A DNA stretch of 64,000 nucleotides from an uncultured Clostridium sp. (GTDB lineage Bacteria > Bacillota > Clostridia > TANB77 > CAG-508): contig CANSOY010000002.1 in assembly GCA_947648765.1 (NCBI GenBank), positions 7,364-71,363 of the forward strand, read 5' to 3'. The notes below the pieces were generated by a model, which had not been told where the DNA came from, did not search any database, and saw only the letters and a list, made by a program, of their open reading frames with translations. Made by a program: the position numbers and the translations under genes. Below, in pieces: positions 23,417 through 38,487 of this stretch. Every line of letters begins with the position of its first letter. The stretch's first letter is position 1.

Positions 23417-26032
23417 TTAGATATTATCTTGTCTTATGGTTTCAATAATGTTTTGCTTTTCAATCTTTTTTAACGAATAGTGCATAATACAACCAATCAG
23501 GATAAAGACGGCAAGTGCTGAGATAAGCGTTCCACTGGTTGGGAAGTTAAATCCTGAATCTACTCCTTCTGCAAAACTTTTGTAGAAAGCAAAGGAAAGT
23601 ACAATTCCAATTGGTACACCAATACATAAAGATTTTAGTCCATAGAATAGACTTTCTAGACGTATCATGCGCTTGAATTCTTTGCTAGTCATACCAATAG
23701 AGCGAAGCATTGCAAATTCTTTTTTGCGAAGGTTCATATTTGTTGTAATTGTGTTGAAGATATTGGTAACACCAATCAAAGAAATTACCGTCATAAAGCC
23801 ATATAGGAAAATGGCAACAACAAGCCACATTGCCTTTTCTTGGCGTACATTTTCTTCGACATTAAAAATGGAAATTCCACTATTCGAATATGCTTTTTCC
23901 AATTCTTCTTGCAAAGCATTTGCTTGTTTTGTCTGAATGTATAGCGAATTGCTTGCATTTGCCTGCCCTTGTGCTTCTAGCCATTCATCACTTACGACAA
24001 AATATGCCATTCCACTGGTTTGCCCTTCTTCTGACATAAACGGTTCTTGGGTTACTTTTACTACTTCCAATCCTACTTGTCTTTTCGCTTCTTCACGACC
24101 AAAAATACCAGTAATTTTGTCGCCCTCTTGGTAACCATATTCTCGTCCAAAATGGTAAACTCTTTTACCTTCTACGATTTTTGGAACAAGTACATTATCA
24201 TATAAAATTGCTTTATCTTTTGCTTGTTCATAAGTTAAGCCTAATTTTTTCAAATATCTTGCATATTCTTCTTTTCCAATCGACATGATACATAAATGTT
24301 CAGTTGCATCTTCGTCACTTGCATTGACTGCTTTCATGTTTTCTTCTCGTAATGCTCCATATTTTACCTCTTTGGCTGGAACTCGTAAATACACGCCACA
24401 AGTCAAACTTGCCCTTTCTACTTTCTCATTTTGAGCAATTTTTTGTAGTCTTTCTCTGACTTCTTTTCCTTGGTTTCCGTTTAGTACTAGGTTATAAGAA
24501 TAGGTTTTATAATAAACGGAGGAAGTTTTGAATGCATAGCCGATAAAGGACGACATCGCAATAAAGATAGCAACAGATACCACAATCGATACCACAGTTG
24601 TACGATATTTTTTCTTATTTCGTTTTAGTGTTTTATATGCAATTTCTCCACCTAAGCCAAATACCTTTTTAATCCATTTTGGCGATTTTACTTTTTTCCC
24701 TTTTATCTTAATCTCTCCGCTGTTACGAATTGCCTCAATCGGCGATACTTTGGCTGCTTTTTTAGCAGAGGAAATCGCAGATAAATAAATGGTAACACCT
24801 GCCAAAACGATTGCTAAAACATTTGCCATAATAGAGGTTGCAAACATAAATTGACTTTGGAATAACATATCTTGTAAAATCGCACCAACTACTTTGGTTA
24901 GTACAAATACAGCAAAATTTCCGCCTAATATACCGATTGGAATACCAATCATAGCAAGAATTCTTGCTTCATATAGTACATTTTTCTTAATTTGTTTTGA
25001 GGTCGCTCCAATCGAGGATAGCATGCCATATTGCTTCATTTTTTCGGTAATGGATATTGCAAAACTGTTACGAATACAGAAAACACTTGTTACAATAATA
25101 ATCACAATTACCACACTGCAAACCGAATACATCATGGTAAGTGTGGAGTCGTTCATCTCCAAATTCACCCAACCAAATAAACCACGATTTCGTTTTTAAT
25201 CAAATATTGCTTGATTTGATTGTTATAGTTATTTATAGGTAAAGAGTTCTCCAATTATCTCTTTTTTTATAAAATTTTAATTTAATACTACAATTTGCTC
25301 TGTTACTTCGTCTTGGTGTTTCATTCCTTTTTTGGTATAGCGTGTGTAAATATCTGCTTTCTCTCCCACTAAGTTTTCACGTTTACAAATGACACTATAA
25401 CCAGGTGCTACTCGTGGTTCTATGGTTGTACTTGGTCTTTCGATCACACCAACAATTTTGAAACTTTTAGTTTCTTTTTCGGTAAAGGTTTCTTCTCCTT
25501 TGTTATACGGCGAACTTTGCCCGAGGGTAAATTCTGAGTCATTTGGTCTTCTTTCGCCAAGTGCTAATGTTAGGGTTTGCCCCACCTCATATTTTATTTT
25601 TCCATTGGTTTCCATATGTTGACTTATCACAATTTCGTCTTCTTGTTCTGGCAAACGTCCTTCGATTAGATTGAGATTGGATTTTTCCATTCCTTTTTGA
25701 TCCATTGCAAGTAAGTAAAGAAATGGTTTGTCTTCATTTTGGCTTTCTTTGCATTTCGCATAGCCAAGTTTTTGCACGGTATAGTAACTTTCAATGTTAC
25801 GGTTTTCTTGAATATATTTCAAGTCCTCTTTTCGTACATCTAAAAAGGCATAGTGGTAATCTCCACCTGTTCTTTTCTCCTCTTGCATTAAGGTTGCACG
25901 AAAACTTTCAGCAAGTCCTGCCACACCTGTAATGAGAGAAGTAGCGAGAATAATTCCCATAATGGTAACAATCGTTCTTTTTTTATTGAGTTTCAAACTT
26001 TTGCTGGTTAACTGCTTCATTAAATTTTTCAA
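23417..26032 (-). pseudogene. MacB/FtsX-type dual-domain ABC permease, disrupted
   Basis: A 251-aa N-terminal piece (TM1 + periplasmic domain) and a 583-aa C-terminal piece (FtsX TM2-4 with the KQYGMLSSIGATSKQI motif, plus a second FtsX domain). They are separated by ~110 nt. Across that stretch the reading frame changes at least twice (LN* / ..KNEIVVYLVG* / VNLEMNDS..). Confidence 0.6.
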
Positions 26033-29085: not shown

Positions 29086-30138
29086 CTATTTTCCTCTAAT
29101 CTCTAATATTTCTTTTTCGCTGAAACCACACAACTTTAATCCCTCGTCTGTAAACCAATCAAATGAACTGTGATATTCTTGCATTATTTTTTCATAAGCA
29201 CTGATAAATAATGTAATATCTATTTCGTTTTTTAGTAGACTACTAACTGCTTTTAATAATCTTTCGATACCGTTTAGATTACCCTCAAAATATTCCCAAC
29301 TATCATAATCAAAAACATTGTCATAAAGAATTTCATGATTGTCATTGATGATATAGCCGGGACCTTGCATATCCGAGCAATCAAAACTCCCCTTACTTAA
29401 TCTATCTTGAAACTGATCATTCCAAGTTATCAAATGGTCTAATACAAATGGAAATTTTTCATAGTTCAAAACATATCCTCCGGCAAAAGGGGTTTGGGAC
29501 GTAGCCATCAATAAATCCCCTTTCTGAAACGGTGTAGGTATATTCAAACAAATACCATGAATATCTAACCAATCATTTTTCATATCTTGTATATTTACCA
29601 TTTCCAATTTTCTATCTTCATTTAGCTTATATTCTGCCACAATATTATACTTACTATCTTTTGAAAACTCTCTCTTTCGAATTAAAAAACTAATGATTTC
29701 TTGTTCTTCATCTTCTTTTAATTCATTGTCTATCTCTTTTTGTATTTCCTGAAATGTTTTATACACATCTCGATATTCATCTTTTCCCGTTGTAATGATA
29801 TGTCCTACACTATTGCACCAGTAATTATAGGTATAAATTACATCTTGTTCTTCTTGCTCTAATTTTTCTTTTAGTTGTTTTATTCTTTTTATTTCTTCTT
29901 TTATCATTGCCTTTACACTGTCATAATGGTTACAGTTTATTCTCTCGATTACTTCCATATCTGGATAATTTTTTATTAGTTCTTCATATGCACTTATCTT
30001 TTCGTCTATATTCATTCTTTTATTCCTGTAAATCAAAACTGCCAATTCTTCTGTATTAAATTTATGTTTGATTTTTCTACAATGTTCACTAATTGCTTCT
30101 GAATTTACTAAGTTATATTCATCTATCATTCTTTTCAT
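29086..30138 (-). CDS. Hypothetical protein (350 aa), last gene of island operon
   Basis: Long ORF 4 nt after the upstream gene; no recognised domain; very AT-rich. Confidence 0.5.
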   Translation of the reverse strand: MKRMIDEYNLVNSEAISEHCRKIKHKFNTEELAVLIYRNKRMNIDEKISAYEELIKNYPDMEVIERINCNHYDSVKAMIKEEIKRIKQLKEKLEQEEQDVIYTYNYWCNSVGHIITTGKDEYRDVYKTFQEIQKEIDNELKEDEEQEIISFLIRKREFSKDSKYNIVAEYKLNEDRKLEMVNIQDMKNDWLDIHGICLNIPTPFQKGDLLMATSQTPFAGGYVLNYEKFPFVLDHLITWNDQFQDRLSKGSFDCSDMQGPGYIINDNHEILYDNVFDYDSWEYFEGNLNGIERLLKAVSSLLKNEIDITLFISAYEKIMQEYHSSFDWFTDEGLKLCGFSEKEILEIRGK

Positions 30139-30142
30139 TCTC

Positions 30143-31024
30143 CTACTTTTTATTGGTTTCGATTTTCATAACTTCCCATTTTCGATTCAATGTTACTTTA
30201 CAATACGCATATTCATCCGAAAAATAATGTTTTTCTATTATGATTTGGATCTCTTGATATTGACTTGGATATTTGAGTGGTGGTTCTTTTCTTAATGCTT
30301 CTATTGTTTCTTCAATTGTCATATAACCATTTCTGTTGAAAAGATTAAGCCCATCTTCTAGAAAACATATTCGATAAAAATAGACTGCATTAGGAGTAGC
30401 TGCAAAATTCTCCTCTAGCATCTCATTGTTATTTTTCATGAACTCTTTTACGGCTCTTTCTTCCCTTGTCAATTCTATTTTATTGGTTCGTTCTGTTTTT
30501 CGATTGGAAAGATATTGATCGGAAGCAAGTTCAAATTCTGCGTCTATAATCGCTGTTTCAAAAGTCATATCCATCATTAAACAAATTGTATCTTCTGTCA
30601 TTTTTTTACGAATATATCGCTCTGTATTGGGTGTACCGACATCTGTATATTTGTAAAAAACATAATATCTATCATATTGCTCTAACGCTTTGTCTAATAA
30701 ATAGATATCTTGAATTGCTATTTGTTTTCTATTGTCTATCAATTCTGTAATCGTTTCTCTTTCTTCTATTGGTATTCGGTCATGTGGATCATAATCATAT
30801 TCTAATCGCTTATTATCACAATATGCTTTGTCTAATTCTAAGCGAAACTTTAGCACACCCTTTTCCTTATAACGACTATCCATTAAAATCGTATCGATTT
30901 CAAATTTTTTGATTGCTTTTCTTTCTATGATTGCTGTATCTAAGTTTGAGAACCCTAATCCTAACTGTTCAAACTTCTTGCTTTTTAGTAGATCTTTCCT
31001 TACTTTTTTTATTCCATAACTCAT
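30143..31024 (-). CDS. Hypothetical protein (~293 aa)
   Basis: ORF with an AAAGGATGG ribosome-binding site; start set at MSYGIKK; no recognised domain. Confidence 0.5.
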   Translation of the reverse strand: MSYGIKKVRKDLLKSKKFEQLGLGFSNLDTAIIERKAIKKFEIDTILMDSRYKEKGVLKFRLELDKAYCDNKRLEYDYDPHDRIPIEERETITELIDNRKQIAIQDIYLLDKALEQYDRYYVFYKYTDVGTPNTERYIRKKMTEDTICLMMDMTFETAIIDAEFELASDQYLSNRKTERTNKIELTREERAVKEFMKNNNEMLEENFAATPNAVYFYRICFLEDGLNLFNRNGYMTIEETIEALRKEPPLKYPSQYQEIQIIIEKHYFSDEYAYCKVTLNRKWEVMKIETNKK

Positions 31025-31039
31025 TTTCAATCCATCCTT

Positions 31040-32143
31040 TCACATGGCAAATACTACATTTTTTATATCTTGTGGCATGATTGTATATAAGTCATCACTG
31101 CCGTTTTCTTTGATTCGTACAGCTTGTTCAAATTTTATCTTCTCGACTAGATTTCGTACCAAATGTGCGTTTTCAAAATTTTCTTTGTTTTGTTTTACTT
31201 CGTTTTCCAAATACTTCAGCACAATTTCTTTACAGCCTTTCTCCAATTCTAGAAAATCTTCTTTTCGTTGTTTTGAAAATATTTCATATAGTTCTTCTAC
31301 CGTATAGTCTGGGAAGTCCATAAAAAATTGGATTCTATTTTTGAAACTTGGGGTTGCGTTCATCAGTTTTTCCATTTCTTCTGGATAATCTGCTAATATC
31401 ACACACAAATCTTCTCGATCGTTTTCCATTTCTTTCATCAATGTTTCGATCCATTCATAGCCATTTGTTCCTTGGACTAGCGAATATGCTTTATCAATAA
31501 ACAATACTCCACCGATTGCTTGTTGTATCACTTTTCTTGTTTTTGCTGCTGTATCTCCTACATATTCGCCAATAAAATCTTCTCGCCCCACTTCTACGAA
31601 AATTCTTTGCGTACTTAATACTCCATTTTCTGCAAAGATATCACTGATTATTCTTGCCGCTGTTGATTTCCCTGTACCAGGATTTCCACGCATACACATA
31701 TGTAGCATCGTTCTTCCTTGTCCGCCTCGCATTCCATCTACTTCCACATAACTCAATATTTTCCTGATTTGTTCTTTTACCTCTTTTAACCCAATTAGAG
31801 AGTTTAATTGGTGTAATCCATATTCAGATTTTGTATCTGCTTTTGGCTTCTCCCAGTTGAACAAGATATCCTCTAAATCAAAACAATCTGTGTTGATTTC
31901 TTGTAATTTTTGTTTATTTGCTTTCACACAGGCTCTAATCAGTGTTTTGTCTATCTCTATCATCGATTTTTCTGCAATCGAGTTTATCATCCAATCTTCT
32001 AACTTTATTTTTAATCCATTTTGTTTTGCTACATTTTTTATATATTGGATTTTTTCTTCCTGTGTAGGCTCTATTATCTTTAGTTCCCAATAAAAGTTTC
32101 TTTGTAACATTTCTCGTATGTCGTTTTTATCTTTTTTTTCCAT
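31040..32143 (-). CDS. AAA+ ATPase, SpoVK/CbbX family
   Basis: LIGLKEVKEQIRKI...GNPGTGKSTAARI (Walker A), VLFIDKAY (Walker B), and an arginine finger (PSFKNRIQ). The pattern aligns with SpoVK. Confidence 0.7.
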   Translation of the reverse strand: MEKKDKNDIREMLQRNFYWELKIIEPTQEEKIQYIKNVAKQNGLKIKLEDWMINSIAEKSMIEIDKTLIRACVKANKQKLQEINTDCFDLEDILFNWEKPKADTKSEYGLHQLNSLIGLKEVKEQIRKILSYVEVDGMRGGQGRTMLHMCMRGNPGTGKSTAARIISDIFAENGVLSTQRIFVEVGREDFIGEYVGDTAAKTRKVIQQAIGGVLFIDKAYSLVQGTNGYEWIETLMKEMENDREDLCVILADYPEEMEKLMNATPSFKNRIQFFMDFPDYTVEELYEIFSKQRKEDFLELEKGCKEIVLKYLENEVKQNKENFENAHLVRNLVEKIKFEQAVRIKENGSDDLYTIMPQDIKNVVFAM

Positions 32144-32176
32144 TAAATTTTCTTATTTTAGAATAACAAAAAATAT

Positions 32177-32569
32177 TCAGTCCCAATTTTTATGTATAAT
32201 TGCTTCTAATTTTCTATCGATGTTATTTTCATCATCTATCACATAAAGTTTCTTTTTCTCAAATTCCGTATTTTCTAGAGTATGTAAATCCGTAATAACG
32301 GTTATTCTGTCCTCTTCTATCATATTTTCTTTTCGCAGTATTTTGCGAATTATCTCTACTTCTTTTGCATAGTCTTTCGAATGGTTATCGCAGAATAGTA
32401 TGATATTATGATTTCCGATATTTATCTTGTTTGCCCTTTTGAGCCTAATATATTCCACATATTCTTCTAGTTCCTTTCTAAAAAAAGTTAGACCATAACA
32501 TTTGTCTAAACTTTTTAGAATATCTTCCGTTGTTTCTTCTTTCCTACTTTGTTTTTCTAAATTTTCCAT
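32177..32569 (-). CDS. Small hypothetical protein (130 aa), predicted alpha/beta
   Basis: Start at MENLEK with an AAGGGA ribosome-binding site. Alternating hydrophobic strands (NIILFCDNH, ITVITDL, KLYVIDDE). Confidence 0.45.
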   Translation of the reverse strand: MENLEKQSRKEETTEDILKSLDKCYGLTFFRKELEEYVEYIRLKRANKINIGNHNIILFCDNHSKDYAKEVEIIRKILRKENMIEEDRITVITDLHTLENTEFEKKKLYVIDDENNIDRKLEAIIHKNWD

Positions 32570-32692
32570 TCTAATTCCCTTCACAACCAAAAATCCTATC
32601 TACATTGTTAGTATATAGGATTTTTAAGTCTTTGTAAATTTTGTTGGTCATATAATGTATTGACTTGATGTCTAGAAAATTCTAAACATTCG

Positions 32693-33790
32693 TTATATTT
32701 GATAGAATTGGTCTAATTTTTTTCTACTCCAGAAGAAATTATTATGAATGAAAAAATCATATAATTTTCCTCGTTCTATTATTTTTATAATGCTATCTAA
32801 ACCTTCCTTTTTTATACGAATAGTCGCTTCCTTTTCTTCTATTTTATCTTCACTATATTGATTGCTACCAGAAAATAGATATATTTTATGATAAATCTTT
32901 TTCTGGGCATCTTCTACATATTTTGAATAATCTACAATCGCACGATTTTTTACTTGGCAAGTAATGATCTTAGGTTTCTCATTATCTTTCAAACACTTTT
33001 CTACTAGGTCAAATTCGTATTTCATTTTGTTTACTTTGCATTCTGATGGCAACAGTATATAATTATTCTCCTTTTCCTGTTTTAAGATATATAAATAAAC
33101 TAAGTCCTCTAAATCTCTGTAGTTCAAGGTATCTGTAAATGTTTCAAGTGTTAATTTTGTTTTTGGAAATTCAAAGTTTTCGTGTAAACCCTCTAAATAT
33201 TTCTGTTTATATAAATGATATATGTTTTCTTTTACCATATTCGTTTCAATACGGTCGATTGCACTATGTATTCTTTGTGAAAATCTTCCTACAATATTTT
33301 GTGGTAATTCATATTCGGAAAATTCATACCACTCTTTAACTGAACCATACCAACTTAGTCTAGGAATATTCAAGTCATTTGTTGCATATTCCCCCTCATT
33401 TAGTATATCTTTGCCATCACAATATCGAACTCCATTATTATCAACTACTCCTATATAATAATGTGCATTTTTTAGTCGCATAATTACGATGTCATTTTCT
33501 TGTATATTACTATAATTTTTTAGGCTTTTATGTGAAATCCCTGCCCCATCATATATGCTATTGTAATCTTTCTCATATTCAGCCGCTACCTTATCCGTCA
33601 AAATCTCATTTTTGTATTTTTTTCTAAAATCTTCTGAATTATGATGCCACCCCATTCCAAAGATTCCTTTTTGGATACAATTATTTTGATATTCTTCTAC
33701 AAATTCTTCGTTTCTATACTTCTTATCAAAAGGCATTAAATAGATAATCCAAAAGTTTTTTATCTCACCTTTTTCGATTATTTTATTCAT
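32693..33790 (-). CDS. Hypothetical protein: possible N-terminal EVE/PUA-like domain and C-terminal PD-(D/E)xK-like motif
   Basis: GGGAGG ribosome-binding site before MNKIIEKG. N-terminus: IFGMGW...ENDIVIMRLKNAHYYIGVV. C-terminus: YEFDLV...KIITCQVK, a D...QxK pattern. The domain assignment is inference. Confidence 0.5.
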   Translation of the reverse strand: MNKIIEKGEIKNFWIIYLMPFDKKYRNEEFVEEYQNNCIQKGIFGMGWHHNSEDFRKKYKNEILTDKVAAEYEKDYNSIYDGAGISHKSLKNYSNIQENDIVIMRLKNAHYYIGVVDNNGVRYCDGKDILNEGEYATNDLNIPRLSWYGSVKEWYEFSEYELPQNIVGRFSQRIHSAIDRIETNMVKENIYHLYKQKYLEGLHENFEFPKTKLTLETFTDTLNYRDLEDLVYLYILKQEKENNYILLPSECKVNKMKYEFDLVEKCLKDNEKPKIITCQVKNRAIVDYSKYVEDAQKKIYHKIYLFSGSNQYSEDKIEEKEATIRIKKEGLDSIIKIIERGKLYDFFIHNNFFWSRKKLDQFYQI

Positions 33791-33812
33791 TTTATAACCT
33801 CCCATCTATCTA

Positions 33813-35294
33813 CTACTTCTTAACTATCTCTTTCAGCTTTTCCCATATTTTAACCATTGCATAAGTATCTAATTTGCAATAAACTAAAAGTCCTTGTCTT
33901 ATTTCTTCTTGCTCCTCTTTTGTTTTCTGTGCAAGTGTTGCAAATACATTCATTGCTTCTCCGCCATTGTGTACCAATGGTAAATTATGATAATCCAGTT
34001 CTGGGTCATCTGGAAATAATGCTGGCAAAACATATTTAATTGAATAAGAACCTTGCATTTCTTTGCAATAATACATTCGACTTGCAAAAGGAACCATTAA
34101 GTCTTTTATATTGTTATGTATTATCCATAAGTCTTCTCTTAAATCTGCATATAATTCTGCTAGATTTTTGATTACCATTTTTTCGAATTGCATATTATAT
34201 GCTAAAACACAAGCATTTTTTTGGATATCTTTTACTAATCGCTCAGCCAGTTTTCTTCTTGGGTCAATTCCTGCCTCTGCTAGAAATTCTTTATGTTTGA
34301 GTTCTCCGCCTTCCTTTTCTATATAATGCAACGAATATTGAAAAGGTATTTGCATATATGGTCTTATTCCATCATATTGGGGAATTGGCTGTTGGAATGT
34401 TTCAAAATCCAAGAAATATAATGGATAATATAAATTTTTTAGAAAAGTTCTAATCTTTTCTTTGTCCATTATCGGTTCTTTATTAAATTCTTCAAATTCC
34501 ACTTGTTGCTTAGATTTCCAGTCTATCTCTTGCTTTAATAAATCTTTGAATTCATAAATGCCTTTATGATATAATTTCAATTTTTGGTCTTTTCTCATTC
34601 TTCTAATTTTGAACACATTGTTTTCCGGTAATTTTCTGGTACAATAATTCCAGTATTCACAATTATATGGAGCAAAACAATGCTTTCCGATGTCTTGTGT
34701 TGGTTCACTTTCTTGTTCCATATATTGATGAATTTCTTTAATTTTTTCTTTGATTTCCTCTTGCTTTGAAAGGGCAATTTCAGTTACATCTTCGATACGA
34801 AGTAACTTGTCTAATTCTAGTTCTCCCTTTCTTATATATTGATTGTTAATATACACGATACTTGCTTTCTTTACTTGATATCCTAAATTGAGAAGTATAT
34901 ACACTTGATAGGAAATATCGTCCAAATAAATATCGCTTATTGAAGTAGAACTTTTTACCTCATAGATTTCTACGCCATTTACATCATTTTTTAGAATATC
35001 TACACTACAGAAATTTTGGTCATACGCAAAGGAGGCTTCTGTAATAATATTAGGCTTTTTTTCCATTTGTTGCTTGGTTTGTTCTATCATTTTTGATAAA
35101 TCACTTTGATATTCAATATTACTGTATTCTCCAAGTAGTTCTCTCGCAAGTTCTCCCACTTCTGTTCCATTCTCCAAAACAGCCTCACTTGCTGTTTGTT
35201 CAGCACATTCTGGTTTATATTGATTTAACCATAATATTTTATTACATTGTTTCGCTTTGCAGTATTTCGATTTCGATAAGTGTACCTTGTCCAT
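33813..35294 (-). CDS. Cas4-like PD-(D/E)xK nuclease fused to a DEDD-like exonuclease (DUF2779-like architecture)
   Basis: N-terminal Cys (KYCKAKQC) and nuclease motifs (VDIL ... IYEVK ... YQVY). Three C-proximal Cys (CFAPYNCEYWNYC) suggest an Fe-S cluster. The C-terminal half has LYFLDFETF (a DxE exonuclease motif). Strong ribosome-binding site. Confidence 0.6.
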   Translation of the reverse strand: MDKVHLSKSKYCKAKQCNKILWLNQYKPECAEQTASEAVLENGTEVGELARELLGEYSNIEYQSDLSKMIEQTKQQMEKKPNIITEASFAYDQNFCSVDILKNDVNGVEIYEVKSSTSISDIYLDDISYQVYILLNLGYQVKKASIVYINNQYIRKGELELDKLLRIEDVTEIALSKQEEIKEKIKEIHQYMEQESEPTQDIGKHCFAPYNCEYWNYCTRKLPENNVFKIRRMRKDQKLKLYHKGIYEFKDLLKQEIDWKSKQQVEFEEFNKEPIMDKEKIRTFLKNLYYPLYFLDFETFQQPIPQYDGIRPYMQIPFQYSLHYIEKEGGELKHKEFLAEAGIDPRRKLAERLVKDIQKNACVLAYNMQFEKMVIKNLAELYADLREDLWIIHNNIKDLMVPFASRMYYCKEMQGSYSIKYVLPALFPDDPELDYHNLPLVHNGGEAMNVFATLAQKTKEEQEEIRQGLLVYCKLDTYAMVKIWEKLKEIVKK

Positions 35295-36017: not shown

Positions 36018-36104
36018 TGGTGCAGATAGTGGGAGTCGAACCCACACGGATGTTACTCCGCTGGATTTTGAGTCCAGTGCGTCTGCCAATTCCGCCACAT
36101 CTGC
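36018..36104 (-). tRNA. tRNA-Leu (anticodon CAA)
   Basis: Cloverleaf read by eye. Acceptor stem GCAGATG/CATCTGC, anticodon loop CUCAAAA, a long variable arm, T-arm GTGGGTTCGACTCCCAC, and encoded CCA. Confidence 0.85.
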
Positions 36105-36156: not shown

Positions 36157-38487
36157 TTATCTTTTTTCATCTGCTTCATATTCTGTAATGTGAAGTTTTG
36201 CAAAAACTAATTCTTTCTTATCATTTTCATACGAATAGCCAACTTCTTTTTGCTCTTGTTCAAAGAAATCAAATTTATCAAAATCCACTAACATTTCTGT
36301 CGATAAATCCATTCCGACTGGTAACGTATTGTTGGTATTATCAAAAAAGATAATATTGGAATAGAAAATTACAGGCATTTTTTCTTTCAAGTTAATGCGA
36401 TACAATTTGCAAGTTTCGCCTTTGTTTTTGCACATGTTAATCGCATCTTGTGGATTTAAGAAACATACATGAATTCCTTTTGGTTCTTCTTCATCTGGTG
36501 CTAATAAATACACAGATAAATCCACTGGCAAAGTAATCTTTTGAAAAGACTCATGCAATAAATTTACAAAATCACGTAAACGGTCTTTGTAAAATTCAAA
36601 TTCCGTATCTGGACGAATGTTCAAAATCTGAAAGCGATTTTTTGGTGTTTCGCGATGTTGTGTGTTGCGAATGGTTTGCATTTTCGTCTTATCTTGGTAG
36701 GCTCCTCCAAAGATATCAAAATCCGCTGCTGCAATTTCTTTTTCGTTTTCTTTGTAGGCTTTTTTCATTTCTTTTAGTTCGTCTTCTAATTTTGCCTTAT
36801 CTGCTTTTAAGATACGTTTGCGATTAACTGCATTCATAGACTCTTCGCAATATCTTGCTACATAAATTGCATCCGTTTCGTCTTTGGAAAACTTTCTTCT
36901 TTGCAATTCGTCAATTTGAACGCCTAAGTCTTCTAAATCTGTTTCATAATCAAAATATTTTTTGATATGTTCTTTTCGCTCGCCATTTTTGTCTTCTTCT
37001 TCACCTTCATTTAGGCTCATAGCAACATCTTTATTCGTATATTTCCAAAATTCTAATAAACTCTTGCGATGGCTTTCAATTTCTTGTAAGTACATCGTTG
37101 CATTTTTGATTTTTTGCGTTAAAATTTCAGCTCGATTTTTTGATGCTTTCAAATCTAGTTTATTATTCTTTAATTCCGTTCTTTTTTTGTTGAGTATGGT
37201 ACAAAAAGCAATTAAATCCTCGATGGTATAATTCTTGTCTTCAATTTTAATCACTTCTTCTTTTTCCTCTTGAACGGCTTTTTCCGTTGCACCTTCTGCT
37301 TCTTTTTCTTGCTTTTTCAAATCGAGCACTTGGTTCATTTTATTTTTATTGCTTTTGCTCTTGAAGAAATACTTTACTTTTCCAAAGAATGTTTTTTTAC
37401 ATTCAATAAAGGCTAGAATTTGTTGCTCTTTTACGGCATATTCTTCACTTCGTTTTGCCACGATTTCTTTTTGCCCTGCTAATTCTTTTTTCACGCCATC
37501 ACATTCTAAGCGAATACGATTAACGGTGCTATTGATATGTAAAATCTGTTCAGTGATAAACTTTGGCAATGTCTTATGGTTGAGTTCGTCTTCTTCGCAA
37601 TAGAATTGCAAATTTCCTTGCTTGTTTAATTGATAGGTAAATTGATAATCTTCTTTCAATTCGCTTCCAATGATAAACAGTGCTTTCATGAGTTTATATA
37701 ACTCTTGTGCCTCTTTTTCGGTTTGTAGTACAATCGCATAGGTACTTTTTACTTTTTCATATACTGGTGCTTGCCCTACAATGCGAATGGTCCTTTTGCC
37801 TTTTTTATCATAAACCTCATAAATTTCTGGCCATTCTTTGGTAAAGAACCAGTAATAGTTTTGAAGATCTGCAATTTGGTCATTGGTAAGCATTTCTCCC
37901 GAAAATTCTTCATAATTAACCGGTGCATATAAGTATTGTTTCTTCTTTGTCTTGCTCATTTCAATTTGCTTTTTAATCACATACCACATAGCTGAATTGT
38001 CTGACTCTTTGGAGGAAACCAGCATAAAGTATTTTCCGATTGCATTGGAATAGAAAATCTGCCAAGCAAAATTATCGATATATTTTACTTTGGTTGGTAC
38101 TTCTTCTTGAAATTTTTCTTGCTCTTGTTCAATTTCTTGAATATGAGCAATATTGATGTTCATAACCATTTTCAAAAAGGCTGCGTGTTTTTCCAAATTT
38201 TCTTCACTGGAACTATCTAAGTATTCGCAAATTGGACTTGCCATTTTATATCGCTTTTGAATTTCCGCTAATCTTTCCACTGGTGAAATCATAATTTCAA
38301 TTTCACTCATATCAATATAGCGGTACACATGATATTTTTCCGCATCATATGATTTTGGTGCACGAAATTTAGGCGCCTCGAATTCTTTTAAGAACTTTGG
38401 TGGTCTTTCTAACTTTAATCCAATATATTCTAAGTTTGTTTTTACATGATCTTTTTCGTCGCTTCTTTTCTTAGGCATTTTTTTCAC
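36157..38487 (-). CDS. Large hypothetical protein (776 aa) with central coiled-coil
   Basis: Long ORF with a GGTG ribosome-binding site and an E/K-rich central region; no recognised catalytic motif. Confidence 0.6.
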   Translation of the reverse strand: MKKMPKKRSDEKDHVKTNLEYIGLKLERPPKFLKEFEAPKFRAPKSYDAEKYHVYRYIDMSEIEIMISPVERLAEIQKRYKMASPICEYLDSSSEENLEKHAAFLKMVMNINIAHIQEIEQEQEKFQEEVPTKVKYIDNFAWQIFYSNAIGKYFMLVSSKESDNSAMWYVIKKQIEMSKTKKKQYLYAPVNYEEFSGEMLTNDQIADLQNYYWFFTKEWPEIYEVYDKKGKRTIRIVGQAPVYEKVKSTYAIVLQTEKEAQELYKLMKALFIIGSELKEDYQFTYQLNKQGNLQFYCEEDELNHKTLPKFITEQILHINSTVNRIRLECDGVKKELAGQKEIVAKRSEEYAVKEQQILAFIECKKTFFGKVKYFFKSKSNKNKMNQVLDLKKQEKEAEGATEKAVQEEKEEVIKIEDKNYTIEDLIAFCTILNKKRTELKNNKLDLKASKNRAEILTQKIKNATMYLQEIESHRKSLLEFWKYTNKDVAMSLNEGEEEDKNGERKEHIKKYFDYETDLEDLGVQIDELQRRKFSKDETDAIYVARYCEESMNAVNRKRILKADKAKLEDELKEMKKAYKENEKEIAAADFDIFGGAYQDKTKMQTIRNTQHRETPKNRFQILNIRPDTEFEFYKDRLRDFVNLLHESFQKITLPVDLSVYLLAPDEEEPKGIHVCFLNPQDAINMCKNKGETCKLYRINLKEKMPVIFYSNIIFFDNTNNTLPVGMDLSTEMLVDFDKFDFFEQEQKEVGYSYENDKKELVFAKLHITEYEADEKR

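What the first reader, a model, noticed from the sequence alone, without database searches (positions are those of the whole stretch)
33813..35294. Cas4-like (Fe-S) PD-(D/E)xK nuclease fused to a DnaQ-like exonuclease as lead gene of the operon
The sequence has an N-terminal Cys plus D...EVK...QxxxY nuclease motifs. Three C-proximal Cys (CFAPYNCEYWNYC) suggest an Fe-S cluster. A second domain carries a DFET (DxE) motif typical of 3'-5' exonucleases. Two nuclease activities in one polypeptide, heading an operon with an AAA+ ATPase, is characteristic of nucleic-acid-targeting immunity or repair modules.
Basis: partly seen in the sequence, partly recalled or inferred. Interest (0 to 1): 0.55.

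Follow-up and report, generated by a model that had tools for sequence, protein, structure and literature searches.

The report
Two-nuclease DUF2779 protein in defence island
The gene encodes an intact member of the large, already catalogued but never experimentally studied DUF2779 family, a Cas4-like iron-sulfur nuclease fused to a DnaQ-like exonuclease; here it sits at the head of a small, partly decayed island of defence-type genes, not in a dedicated operon with the AAA+ ATPase.

Summary

This architecture is not new. Majorek 2014 and an mSphere 2026 paper already describe it in silico. The family has about 8,000 clusters at 50% identity and no member has been characterised biochemically.

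The "operon with an AAA+ ATPase" reading is only partly supported.
- The next gene is an independent type IV restriction-like nuclease (EVE-like reader plus PD-(D/E)xK; PADLOC PDC-S02).
- Relatives carry a WYL regulator between the two genes, and this window lacks it.
- The AAA gene here has two in-frame stops and a Walker B E-to-K change.
- The AAA gene and the restriction-like gene both occur elsewhere without DUF2779.

In Clostridia, DUF2779 is almost always near a WYL regulator and often near this AAA protein, in conjugative-element or defence-island settings. Interchangeable restriction-like genes sit directly behind it. The most likely role is a stand-alone DNA-end exonuclease that acts on both polarities in defence or damage processing. 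It is a new member of a known kind, of modest interest.

The parts
33813..35294 (-). DUF2779-family gene (493 aa): a Cas4-like nuclease fused to a DEDDy exonuclease
34620..35294 (-). N-terminal Cas4/RecB-like PD-(D/E)xK domain (about aa 1-225), with D99, E112, K114, Q130 and the Cys ligands C17, C206, C212 and C218
33816..34424 (-). C-terminal DnaQ-like DEDDy 3'-5' exonuclease domain (about aa 291-493). Motifs: Exo I D296-x-E298; Exo II Y366-N-x-x-F370-E371; Exo III Y472-x3-D476. D398 is also conserved.
32693..33790 (-). Gene X, about 365 aa counted from the ATG at 33790 (370 aa from the upstream ATG at 33805). It has an EVE/YTH-like modified-base reader domain plus a Mrr-like PD-(D/E)xK nuclease, so it is type IV restriction-like and matches PADLOC candidate PDC-S02.
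32589..32638 (-). Intergenic promoter-like site (TTTACA-17-TATACT) overlapping a 15-nt palindrome, just upstream of the AAA gene. Relatives have a WYL regulator gene at this position.
   Evidence: (I13). These are consensus matches only; function is not shown.
31040..32590 (-). SpoVK/CbbX-type AAA+ ATPase gene. It is colinear in one frame with 509-537-aa homologues, but here it is interrupted by two in-frame stops (TGA 32177-32179 and a TAA about 30 nt downstream). Walker B reads D-K instead of D-E.
   Evidence: Pfam AAA plus AAA_lid_6, NCBIfam SpoVK/CbbX/EccA-like below cut-offs. tblastn colinearity with L008. Intact in conspecific L001 and L086. The Walker B D-K is also present in L086.
30143..31030 (-). 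Gene g295, of unknown function, which travels with the AAA gene in close relatives
   Evidence: No hit in Pfam, NCBIfam, PADLOC or PHROGs. 70-76% identical copies follow the AAA gene in L002, L005, L006, L008, L053 and L075.
29086..30138 (-). Gene g350, of unknown function, which follows g295 in some relatives
   Evidence: No family hit apart from a marginal PADLOC PDC-M10A match. Homologues in L002, L008, L053, L024 and L021.
36018..36104 (-). tRNA-Leu(CAA) bordering the low-GC stretch that holds the island. It is a possible former integration site.
   Evidence: ARAGORN and Rfam. GC is 0.28-0.32 across 28-36 kb against about 0.35 on either side. No repeat of its 3' end was found.

Best explanation
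SHOWN.
- The gene encodes a full-length, catalytically intact member of the widespread DUF2779 (PF11074) family.
- One polypeptide joins two nuclease domains through a helical linker. The first is a Cas4/RecB-type PD-(D/E)xK nuclease whose four invariant cysteines are placed as in the Fe-S cluster of Cas4. The second is a DnaQ-like DEDDy exonuclease.

INFERRED from the biochemistry of the two folds (Cas4, AddB and Dna2 are metal-dependent 5'-3' ssDNA exo/endonucleases; DEDD enzymes are two-metal 3'-5' exonucleases).
- The protein is a helicase-less nuclease that can degrade free DNA ends or single-stranded tails in both polarities.
- In effect this is an AddAB/RecBCD-like nuclease pair without the motor.

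CONTEXT (shown).
- This copy lies in a low-GC, 6-kb remnant of a conjugative-element-type defence island next to tRNA-Leu.
- It is followed by an independent type IV restriction-like gene and by an AAA+/g295/g350 module whose ATPase is damaged here.
- In Clostridia the family member is almost always found near a BrxR-like HTH-WYL-WCX regulator. Interchangeable single-gene restriction-like nucleases (PDC-S02, PDC-S26, GmrSD/HEC-05/HEC-06) are inserted directly behind it.

INFERRED ROLE.
- It is a stand-alone DNA-end-degrading enzyme that serves island-borne defence or damage processing. One example would be destroying linear or restricted foreign DNA.
- It is not a subunit of an obligate nuclease-ATPase system.
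For: Identity and folds.

Catalytic and Cys conservation across 35-89% identity.

Family size and constant length of about 490-500 aa: 8,260 clusters at E<=1e-3.

Prior in-silico description.

Mobility:
- 86-92% identical copies sit in quite different upstream contexts, with a T4SS coupling protein, HTH_36 and serine recombinase.
- Conspecific contigs share the window's context.

Hotspot behind the gene:
- Occupants are PDC-S02 (window, L008, L002), PDC-S26/PDDEXK_4 (L005), GmrSD/HEC-06 (L024) and HEC-05 (L032, E 2e-183).
- In other loci DUF2779 abuts or overlaps the WYL gene directly.

Linkage:
- Of 38 loci with at least 5 kb on both flanks, 15 have WYL, 15 have AAA and 12 have both.
- By my reading of the tree and context table, about 22 of 23 Clostridia loci with enough flank have one or both.
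- The trio appears again in another order when sampling starts from an AAA homologue (L082).
- WYL is also near DUF2779 on Selenomonas plasmid pSRC1.

Independence of modules:
- X occurs without DUF2779 next to WYL in integrative elements.
- AAA occurs without DUF2779 in the fully flanked L084, and none is seen in the truncated flanks of L083 and L085.

Phages: no full-length copy among 50,697 phage records.
Against: - No biochemical datum exists for any family member. Substrate (DNA or RNA), polarity and Fe-S content are all inferred.
- More distant homologues in Bacilli, Erysipelotrichaceae and 'Tenericutes' lie in conserved contexts without WYL that look housekeeping.
- The mycoplasma member is quasi-essential or needed in cell culture. 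The family's primary role may therefore be repair or nucleotide recycling rather than defence.
- DUF2779 is not a model in PADLOC v2.
- The co-localisation with WYL and AAA could simply reflect shared residence in one family of conjugative elements.
- The sample of loci was seeded with peptide patterns from this protein, so it is biased towards gut and rumen Firmicutes.
Confidence: 0.6

Rival explanations
1. DUF2779 is the nuclease effector of a multi-gene immunity system whose other parts are the AAA+ ATPase, g295 and g350, with or without the WYL regulator. The genes would be transcribed as one operon, with the ATPase sensing or licensing nuclease action.
For: - All the genes lie on the same strand with short gaps.
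- DUF2779, WYL and AAA co-occur in 12 of 38 well-flanked loci and in nearly all Clostridia loci, across about 45% sequence divergence and with rearranged gene orders.
- The trio reappears when sampling starts from AAA (L082).
- The AAA protein has weak similarity to the defence ATPases IetA and mad8.
Against: - Unrelated, self-sufficient defence genes sit between the supposed partners.
- AAA homologues occur without DUF2779 (none in the truncated flanks), and many DUF2779 genes have no AAA.
- This species lacks WYL, has a Walker B D-K ATPase (also in L086) and, in this window, a twice-interrupted ATPase frame. The DUF2779 gene nevertheless stays intact.
- The IetA and mad8 scores are far below family level: 18-30 bits, and the NCBIfam cut-off is 510.
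Confidence: 0.15
2. Housekeeping DNA repair or nucleotide-salvage nuclease. The family would be a general end-resection or DNA-recycling enzyme, and its position in an island here would be incidental.
For: - The family is very large and found in many phyla.
- The gene is quasi-essential in JCVI-syn3.0.
- An M. bovis transposon mutant is growth-deficient in cell culture, alongside replication, repair and nucleotide-metabolism mutants.
- Bacilli, Erysipelotrichaceae and 'Tenericutes' homologues lie in conserved contexts without WYL or AAA, and without a defence gene that I identified there.
- The closest solved relative of the C-terminal domain is the repair exonuclease MrfB.
Against: - This copy and its 86-92% identical relatives move between unrelated contexts together with defence cargo and conjugation genes.
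- The local GC is below the surroundings.
- In Clostridia the neighbours are restriction-like genes and WYL regulators.
Confidence: 0.2
3. CRISPR-associated Cas4 acting in spacer acquisition. In this reading the fused DEDD domain would provide the 3' trimming that DnaQ-like domains supply in some adaptation modules.
For: - The best structural matches are Cas4 proteins from adaptation complexes.
Against: - There is no CRISPR array in the 64-kb window.
- No cas1 or cas2 gene is among the neighbours here or in any of the annotated related loci.
- The Pfam Cas4 score is only marginal.
Confidence: 0.02

Closest known systems
PF11074 / DUF2779 family (for example MMSYN1_0389 of JCVI-syn3.0; Mbov_0804; the UU173 family of Mollicutes)
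   Same: Same two-domain architecture (Cas4-like N-terminal half, DEDDy C-terminal half) and the same conserved D/E/K and DEDDy residues. The Pfam score of 159 bits is far above the 23.3-bit cut-off.
   Different: - The mycoplasma proteins are longer (about 650 aa).
- According to PMC13621843 they keep only two of the four cysteines. This protein and its relatives keep all four.
- The NCBIfam UU173 model scores only 56 bits against a cut-off of 225.
- The genomic setting here is a mobile defence island, not a core gene.
Cas4 (CRISPR adaptation nuclease; SSO0001 4IC1, Cas4-Cas1 7MI4, Pcal_0546 4R5Q)
   Different: - No CRISPR array and no cas1 or cas2 gene are nearby.
- The literal QxxxY motif is replaced by YQxY.
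- The domain is fused to a second nuclease.
DEDD(h/y) DnaQ-like 3'-5' exonucleases (MrfB 8UN9, Pol III epsilon, ExoI, family B polymerase proofreading domains)
   Different: - The Exo II acidic residue is Glu (F370-E371) rather than Asp, and there is an extra invariant D398.
- There is no MrfA-like helicase partner.
- The domain is fused to a PD-(D/E)xK domain.
AddAB / RecBCD / AdnAB end-processing nucleases
   Different: - There is no helicase or translocase domain and no Chi-recognition module.
- The second nuclease is DnaQ-like rather than a second RecB-type domain.
BrxR/CapW-type WYL-regulated defence islands (PMC9122601)
   Same: In Clostridial relatives an HTH-WYL-WCX regulator lies next to DUF2779 among type IV restriction-like and other defence genes.
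   Different: - The window itself has lost the WYL gene, or never had it.
- DUF2779 has not, to my knowledge, been listed among the systems associated with BrxR. No paper in the library links them.

Membership tests
DUF2779 (Pfam PF11074) | Match to the family HMM above the gathering score | tested here: met
   159.1 bits against a cut-off of 23.3, covering profile positions 1-126 of 126.
DUF2779 (Pfam PF11074) | Full-length colinearity with family members, including the N-terminal Cas4-like half | tested here: met
   All 150 best representatives listed (35-58% identity) match in a single or at most two stretches, most of them over nearly the whole query and at lengths of about 490-500 aa. Alignments A2 and A3.
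Cas4 / RecB-like PD-(D/E)xK nucleases | Catalytic D...(D/E)xK triad conserved | tested here: met
   D99 99%, E112 84-98%, K114 96-100%.
Cas4 / RecB-like PD-(D/E)xK nucleases | Four cysteines (one N-terminal, three C-terminal) that bind an Fe-S cluster | tested here: met
   C17 is 98% conserved and C206, C212 and C218 are 100% conserved. This shows the residues only; actual cluster binding cannot be tested here.
Cas4 / RecB-like PD-(D/E)xK nucleases | Cas4 fold | tested here: met
   [not shown]
Cas4 / RecB-like PD-(D/E)xK nucleases | Motif IV QhxxY | tested here: inconclusive
   Q130 is conserved (91-100%), but the tyrosine is at +2 (Y132, 65%) and -1 rather than +4.
CRISPR-associated Cas4 (adaptation module) | Location next to cas1/cas2 or a CRISPR array | tested here: not met
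   No array in the window. No cas genes among neighbours here or in the related loci.
DEDD (DnaQ-like) 3'-5' exonucleases | Exo I (DxE), Exo II (acidic residue after F/Y) and Exo III (Y/H-x3-D) motifs | tested here: met
   D296, E298, F370-E371 and Y472...D476 are all 98% conserved. The Exo II acid is Glu rather than Asp.
DEDD (DnaQ-like) 3'-5' exonucleases | RNase H-like exonuclease fold | tested here: met
   [not shown]
UU173 family (NCBIfam NF045869) | Score above the curated cut-off | tested here: not met
   56.5 bits against a cut-off of 225, and only the C-terminal part aligns.
IetAS-type or other known ATPase-containing defence system (for the neighbouring AAA gene) | Family-level match to the ATPase, plus the partner protease or effector | tested here: not met
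   IetA hits are 14-31 bits, and the NCBIfam IteA model gives 18 bits against a cut-off of 510. No IetS-like protease is present.
Type IV (modification-dependent) restriction endonucleases, MspJI-like (for neighbouring gene X) | Modified-base reader domain (EVE/SRA/YTH-like) fused to a PD-(D/E)xK nuclease | tested here: met
   [not shown]
Any nuclease family | Demonstrated nuclease activity, polarity and metal or Fe-S content | not testable with these tools
   This needs purified protein.

The most novel reading that the evidence does not exclude
In Clostridia, DUF2779 together with an HTH-WYL-WCX regulator (and often a SpoVK-like AAA+ protein) forms a conserved cassette carried on conjugative elements. 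The junction directly behind DUF2779 is an insertion hotspot for interchangeable single-gene, mostly type IV restriction-like nucleases. In this reading DUF2779 is itself an uncharacterised anti-phage or anti-plasmid factor. For example, it could be a 'clean-up' exonuclease acting on both polarities that destroys DNA ends made by the neighbouring restriction enzymes, under WYL control.
Probability: 0.25. Interest if true: 0.6.

Novelty: new member of a known kind. Interest (0 to 1): 0.3.

Why it matters
DUF2779 is one of the larger nuclease families that still has no experimental function. It has about 8,000 clusters at 50% identity, is quasi-essential in the minimal cell JCVI-syn3.0, and is present in many phyla and in gut archaea.

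This window adds no new architecture. The comparative context does give a testable lead. In Clostridia the gene travels with WYL regulators and swappable restriction-like genes on conjugative elements. That points to a role in handling foreign or broken DNA, and it marks a cargo hotspot that could be mined for new defence genes.

If the enzyme really combines 5'-3' and 3'-5' degradation in one helicase-less polypeptide, it would be a compact alternative to AddAB/RecBCD-type end processing.

Tried and rejected
- **Sequence searches of the PDB.** Neither the protein nor a 44-sequence profile found a relevant entry. Only fold comparison worked.
- **PHROGs.** No hit for DUF2779 or gene X.
- **tblastn against phages and plasmids.** The phage search found only short C-terminal fragments in Helicobacter prophage-like records. 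Plasmids hold the gene rarely, in 32 of 72,556 records.
- **Metagenome scan seeded with the AAA protein.** It returned a single distant locus, so it was useless for statistics.
- **Search for att-like repeats.** I looked for a copy of the tRNA-Leu 3' end and for direct or inverted repeats flanking 29-36 kb. Nothing convincing turned up, and no integrase is present, so the island's borders remain undefined.
- **CRISPR-associated Cas4 reading.** Rejected, because there are no arrays and no cas genes.
- **Known defence systems.** PADLOC gave only generic Cas4 hits for DUF2779 and sub-threshold IetA/mad8/TRIP13 hits for the ATPase.
- **Promoter and terminator scan.** Counts were no better than in shuffled sequence, so it cannot define transcription units.
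- **g295 and g350.** No family, PDB or defence-database match.
Full report
**Observation**

The window holds a 493-codon ORF at 33813..35294 on the minus strand, exactly as reported. A purine-rich ribosome-binding sequence precedes its ATG.

Profile searches place the C-terminal half in Pfam PF11074/DUF2779 (E 8e-47, 159 bits against a cut-off of 23.3). The N-terminal half matches Cas4 marginally in Pfam (23.2 against 22.7 bits) and more clearly in PADLOC (E 7e-11, aa 16-221). NCBIfam gives only a sub-threshold match to the mycoplasma UU173 family.

**Conservation**

I collected two comparison sets: 75 genomic loci from one genome per species, and the 150 best cluster representatives from an exhaustive HMMER scan. 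The scan found 8,260 clusters at E<=1e-3 and 2,501 at <=1e-30.

- In 68 homologues of 41-89% identity, the residues C17, C206, C212, C218, D99, K114, D126, Q130, D296, E298, E371, Y472 and D476 are invariant. E112 is at least 98% conserved.
- In 128 full-length representatives of 35-56% identity, the three C-terminal cysteines are 100% conserved and C17 is 98%. D99 is 99% and K114 96%. D296, E298, E371, D398, Y472 and D476 are each 98%.
C12 is not conserved, so C17 is the N-terminal ligand candidate. The literal QxxxY motif is absent, and the sequence is YQ130xY.

**Fold**

An AlphaFold2 model built on 58 sequences is confident (pLDDT 93.7, pTM 0.86).

- Foldseek agrees, with Cas4 8d3l and 4r5q on top.
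- Sequence-only searches of the PDB found nothing.

**Is the architecture new?**

No.

- Majorek et al. 2014 (PMC3985635) placed DUF2779 (their family F.17) in the 3'-5' exonuclease clade of the RNase H-like superfamily. They noted its co-occurrence with DUF83, the Cas4-like PD-(D/E)xK domain.
- A 2026 mSphere paper (PMC13621843) describes the JCVI-syn3.0 member MMSYN1_0389 as a fusion of a Cas4-like nuclease and a DEDD(y) nuclease. [quoted passage not shown]
- The only phenotype I found is a growth defect in cell culture of an M. bovis transposon mutant.
- One difference is that the mycoplasma protein keeps only two cysteines, whereas this protein and its relatives keep all four.

**The 'operon'**

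Downstream on the same strand lie four units: a 370-aa gene (X), a 137-aa ORF plus a 367-aa AAA+ ORF, a 295-aa gene and a 350-aa gene.

*Gene X.*
- X most likely starts at the ATG at 33790, 22 nt after the DUF2779 stop codon, with its own GGAGG.
- It matches the PADLOC candidate PDC-S02 (E 4.5e-28).
- Its family is small, with 38 hits. It has invariant E233, E264 and Q284-V-K286.
- An AF2 model (pLDDT 86) matches the modification-dependent restriction enzymes MspJI, AspBHI and VcaM4I. It also matches EVE/PUA, YTH and McrB-N reader domains.
- X is therefore a reader-plus-PD-(D/E)xK, type IV restriction-like nuclease.
- Homologues of X at 36-38% identity sit next to WYL regulators in integrative or mobilisable elements (MobL, integrase, ParA, PcfJ, GmrSD) with no DUF2779. 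X is an independent module.

*The AAA gene.*
- The 137-aa and 367-aa ORFs are one gene. They align colinearly and in one frame with 509-537-aa SpoVK/CbbX-type AAA+ proteins, but two in-frame stops interrupt them.
- Two conspecific contigs have intact codons at that position. L001 carries DUF2779 at 97% identity. L086 is 99.63% identical over 20.9 kb and has the same synteny.
- The window differs from L086 by a tight patch of nine G>T/C>A changes at 32139-32201. A second patch at 25162-25287 splits an FtsX permease. Whether these are real or artefactual cannot be decided here.
- Independently of that patch, the lineage's ATPase has Walker B D-K instead of D-E, and L086 has it too. This substitution would be expected to abolish ATP hydrolysis.
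- A 102-nt gap with a promoter-like site and a 15-nt palindrome precedes the AAA gene.

**Comparative context**

I called ORFs in all loci and clustered them. Two families recur near DUF2779.
- A protein of about 330 aa with HTH-WYL-WCX domains occurs in 28 loci (Pfam WYL plus WCX).
- The AAA+ protein of about 530 aa occurs in 26 loci.

The typical order is DUF2779 - [0-4 variable genes] - WYL - [variable genes] - AAA - (168 aa) - g295 - g350 - a DnaB_C-like fragment.

The gene directly behind DUF2779 varies between loci.

| Occupant | Loci |
|---|---|
| PDC-S02 | window, L002, L008 (E 1.8e-60) |
| PDC-S26 / PDDEXK_4 | L005 |
| GmrSD / HEC-06 | L024 |
| HEC-05 | L032 (E 2e-183) |
| Unknown | L006, L021 |
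| None; DUF2779 abuts or overlaps WYL | L003, L020, L039, L042, L069 |

Other neighbours include a dGTPase-like HD protein, DUF2201 plus a MoxR-type AAA plus an SNF2 helicase, SbcCD-like pairs, NERD and McrBC.

Copies that are 86-92% identical to the window protein have quite different upstream genes. These include a T4SS coupling protein, HTH_36 and sigma-like regulators, and downstream there is a serine recombinase. A 70% homologue lies inside a conjugative-element-like region. This clade of DUF2779 therefore moves with its downstream module on conjugative elements.

Linkage counts:
- Of 38 loci with at least 5 kb on both sides, 15 have WYL, 15 have AAA and 12 have both.
- By my reading of a neighbour-joining tree with context flags, about 22 of 23 Clostridia loci with enough flank have one or both. 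No Bacilli, Erysipelotrichaceae or 'Tenericutes' locus does, and two Methanobrevibacter loci have only the AAA gene.
- I also sampled in reverse, starting from AAA homologues of 44-45% identity. One locus had McrBC-AAA-WYL-...-DUF2779 (L082). Three loci in conjugative-element-like contexts showed no DUF2779 in the available flank, but only L084 has full flanks on both sides.

The window's locus lacks the WYL gene, as do its conspecifics. It sits in a low-GC stretch (0.28-0.32 against about 0.35) beside tRNA-Leu(CAA). No integrase or att-like repeat was found.

**Interpretation**

Shown:
- The protein is a two-nuclease polypeptide with both active sites conserved.
- It belongs to DUF2779.
- It lies in a mosaic of separable defence-type modules.

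Inferred from the enzymology of the two folds:
- It is a helicase-less enzyme that can attack DNA ends or single-stranded tails in both polarities.
- Given its company (WYL regulators of the BrxR type, which are known to accompany defence islands, PMC9122601; type IV restriction-like genes; conjugative elements) and its absence from phage genomes, the most likely role of this copy is degradation or processing of foreign or broken DNA.
- It probably acts as a stand-alone factor rather than as a subunit of an ATPase-nuclease machine.

The main rival is that the family is basically a housekeeping repair or recycling nuclease, as the mycoplasma data and the non-island contexts in Bacilli suggest. 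In that reading the Clostridial island location is secondary. A CRISPR role is excluded for this locus.

**Verdict**

The gene is a new member of a known, uncharacterised family. Interest is modest at 0.3. The most novel reading still open is a conserved DUF2779-WYL cassette with a restriction-gene hotspot, in which DUF2779 is itself a defence factor. I put its probability at about 0.25 and its interest, if true, at about 0.6.

Noticed in passing
window 32139-32201 (AAA gene) and 25162-25287 (FtsX permease): Two tight patches of almost exclusively G>T, C>A and A>T differences from a 99.63% identical conspecific contig (L086). The first creates two in-frame stops in the AAA+ gene. The second splits an 867-aa FtsX permease into 251 aa and 583 aa. 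This is either an assembly or read artefact or local hypermutation.
   Followed up: partly
window 31040-32143 (also L086): The AAA+ ATPase of this lineage has Walker B 'LFIDKAYSL' where relatives have 'LFIDEAYSL', plus a 6-residue deletion just after it. The same change is in the conspecific contig whose gene is intact, so the ATPase may be hydrolysis-dead even when uninterrupted.
   Followed up: partly
[not shown]
   Followed up: yes
window 36018-36104 (-) and 28-36 kb: tRNA-Leu(CAA) borders a low-GC stretch (0.28-0.32) that contains the FMN reductase gene and the island. No integrase and no duplicated tRNA 3' end were found, so this may be an old, decayed integration.
   Followed up: partly
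window 32589-32638 (-): A 15-nt near-perfect palindrome (AAAAATCCTATCTAC / GTATATAGGATTTTT) overlaps a promoter-like TTTACA-17-TATACT just upstream of the AAA gene. Relatives carry the WYL regulator gene at this spot, so it may be an operator remnant.
   Followed up: no
L020:5176-6975, L024:7891-8697, L008:8571-9008, L003 downstream genes: Related loci carry odd fragments of replication proteins next to WYL and AAA. These include stand-alone DnaB C-terminal ATPase domains (145-268 aa), DnaE PHP and finger pieces, and one 599-aa ORF that fuses DnaE palm and finger segments to a DnaB_C domain. Their meaning is unknown.
   Followed up: no
L023, L030, L033-L037, L040, L041, L044-L046, L071, L078: Full-length DUF2779 homologues of 51-57% identity occur in many Methanobrevibacter (archaeal) genomes from rumen and gut. 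This suggests transfer between domains in that habitat, although some of these contigs are short and could be mis-binned.
   Followed up: no
L075:9596-10150 and upstream: One relative has only the last 49 residues or so of DUF2779 (92% identical). It lies directly downstream of a T4SS coupling protein, an SbcCD-like pair, a release-factor-like gene and an AAA_14 ATPase. The X-WYL-AAA-g295 module behind it is intact, so the module can persist without DUF2779.
   Followed up: partly
window 36157-38487 (-): A 776-aa protein between ThrRS and tRNA-Leu has no family match apart from a marginal bacterial PH-domain hit. It is conserved in the conspecific contigs.
   Followed up: no
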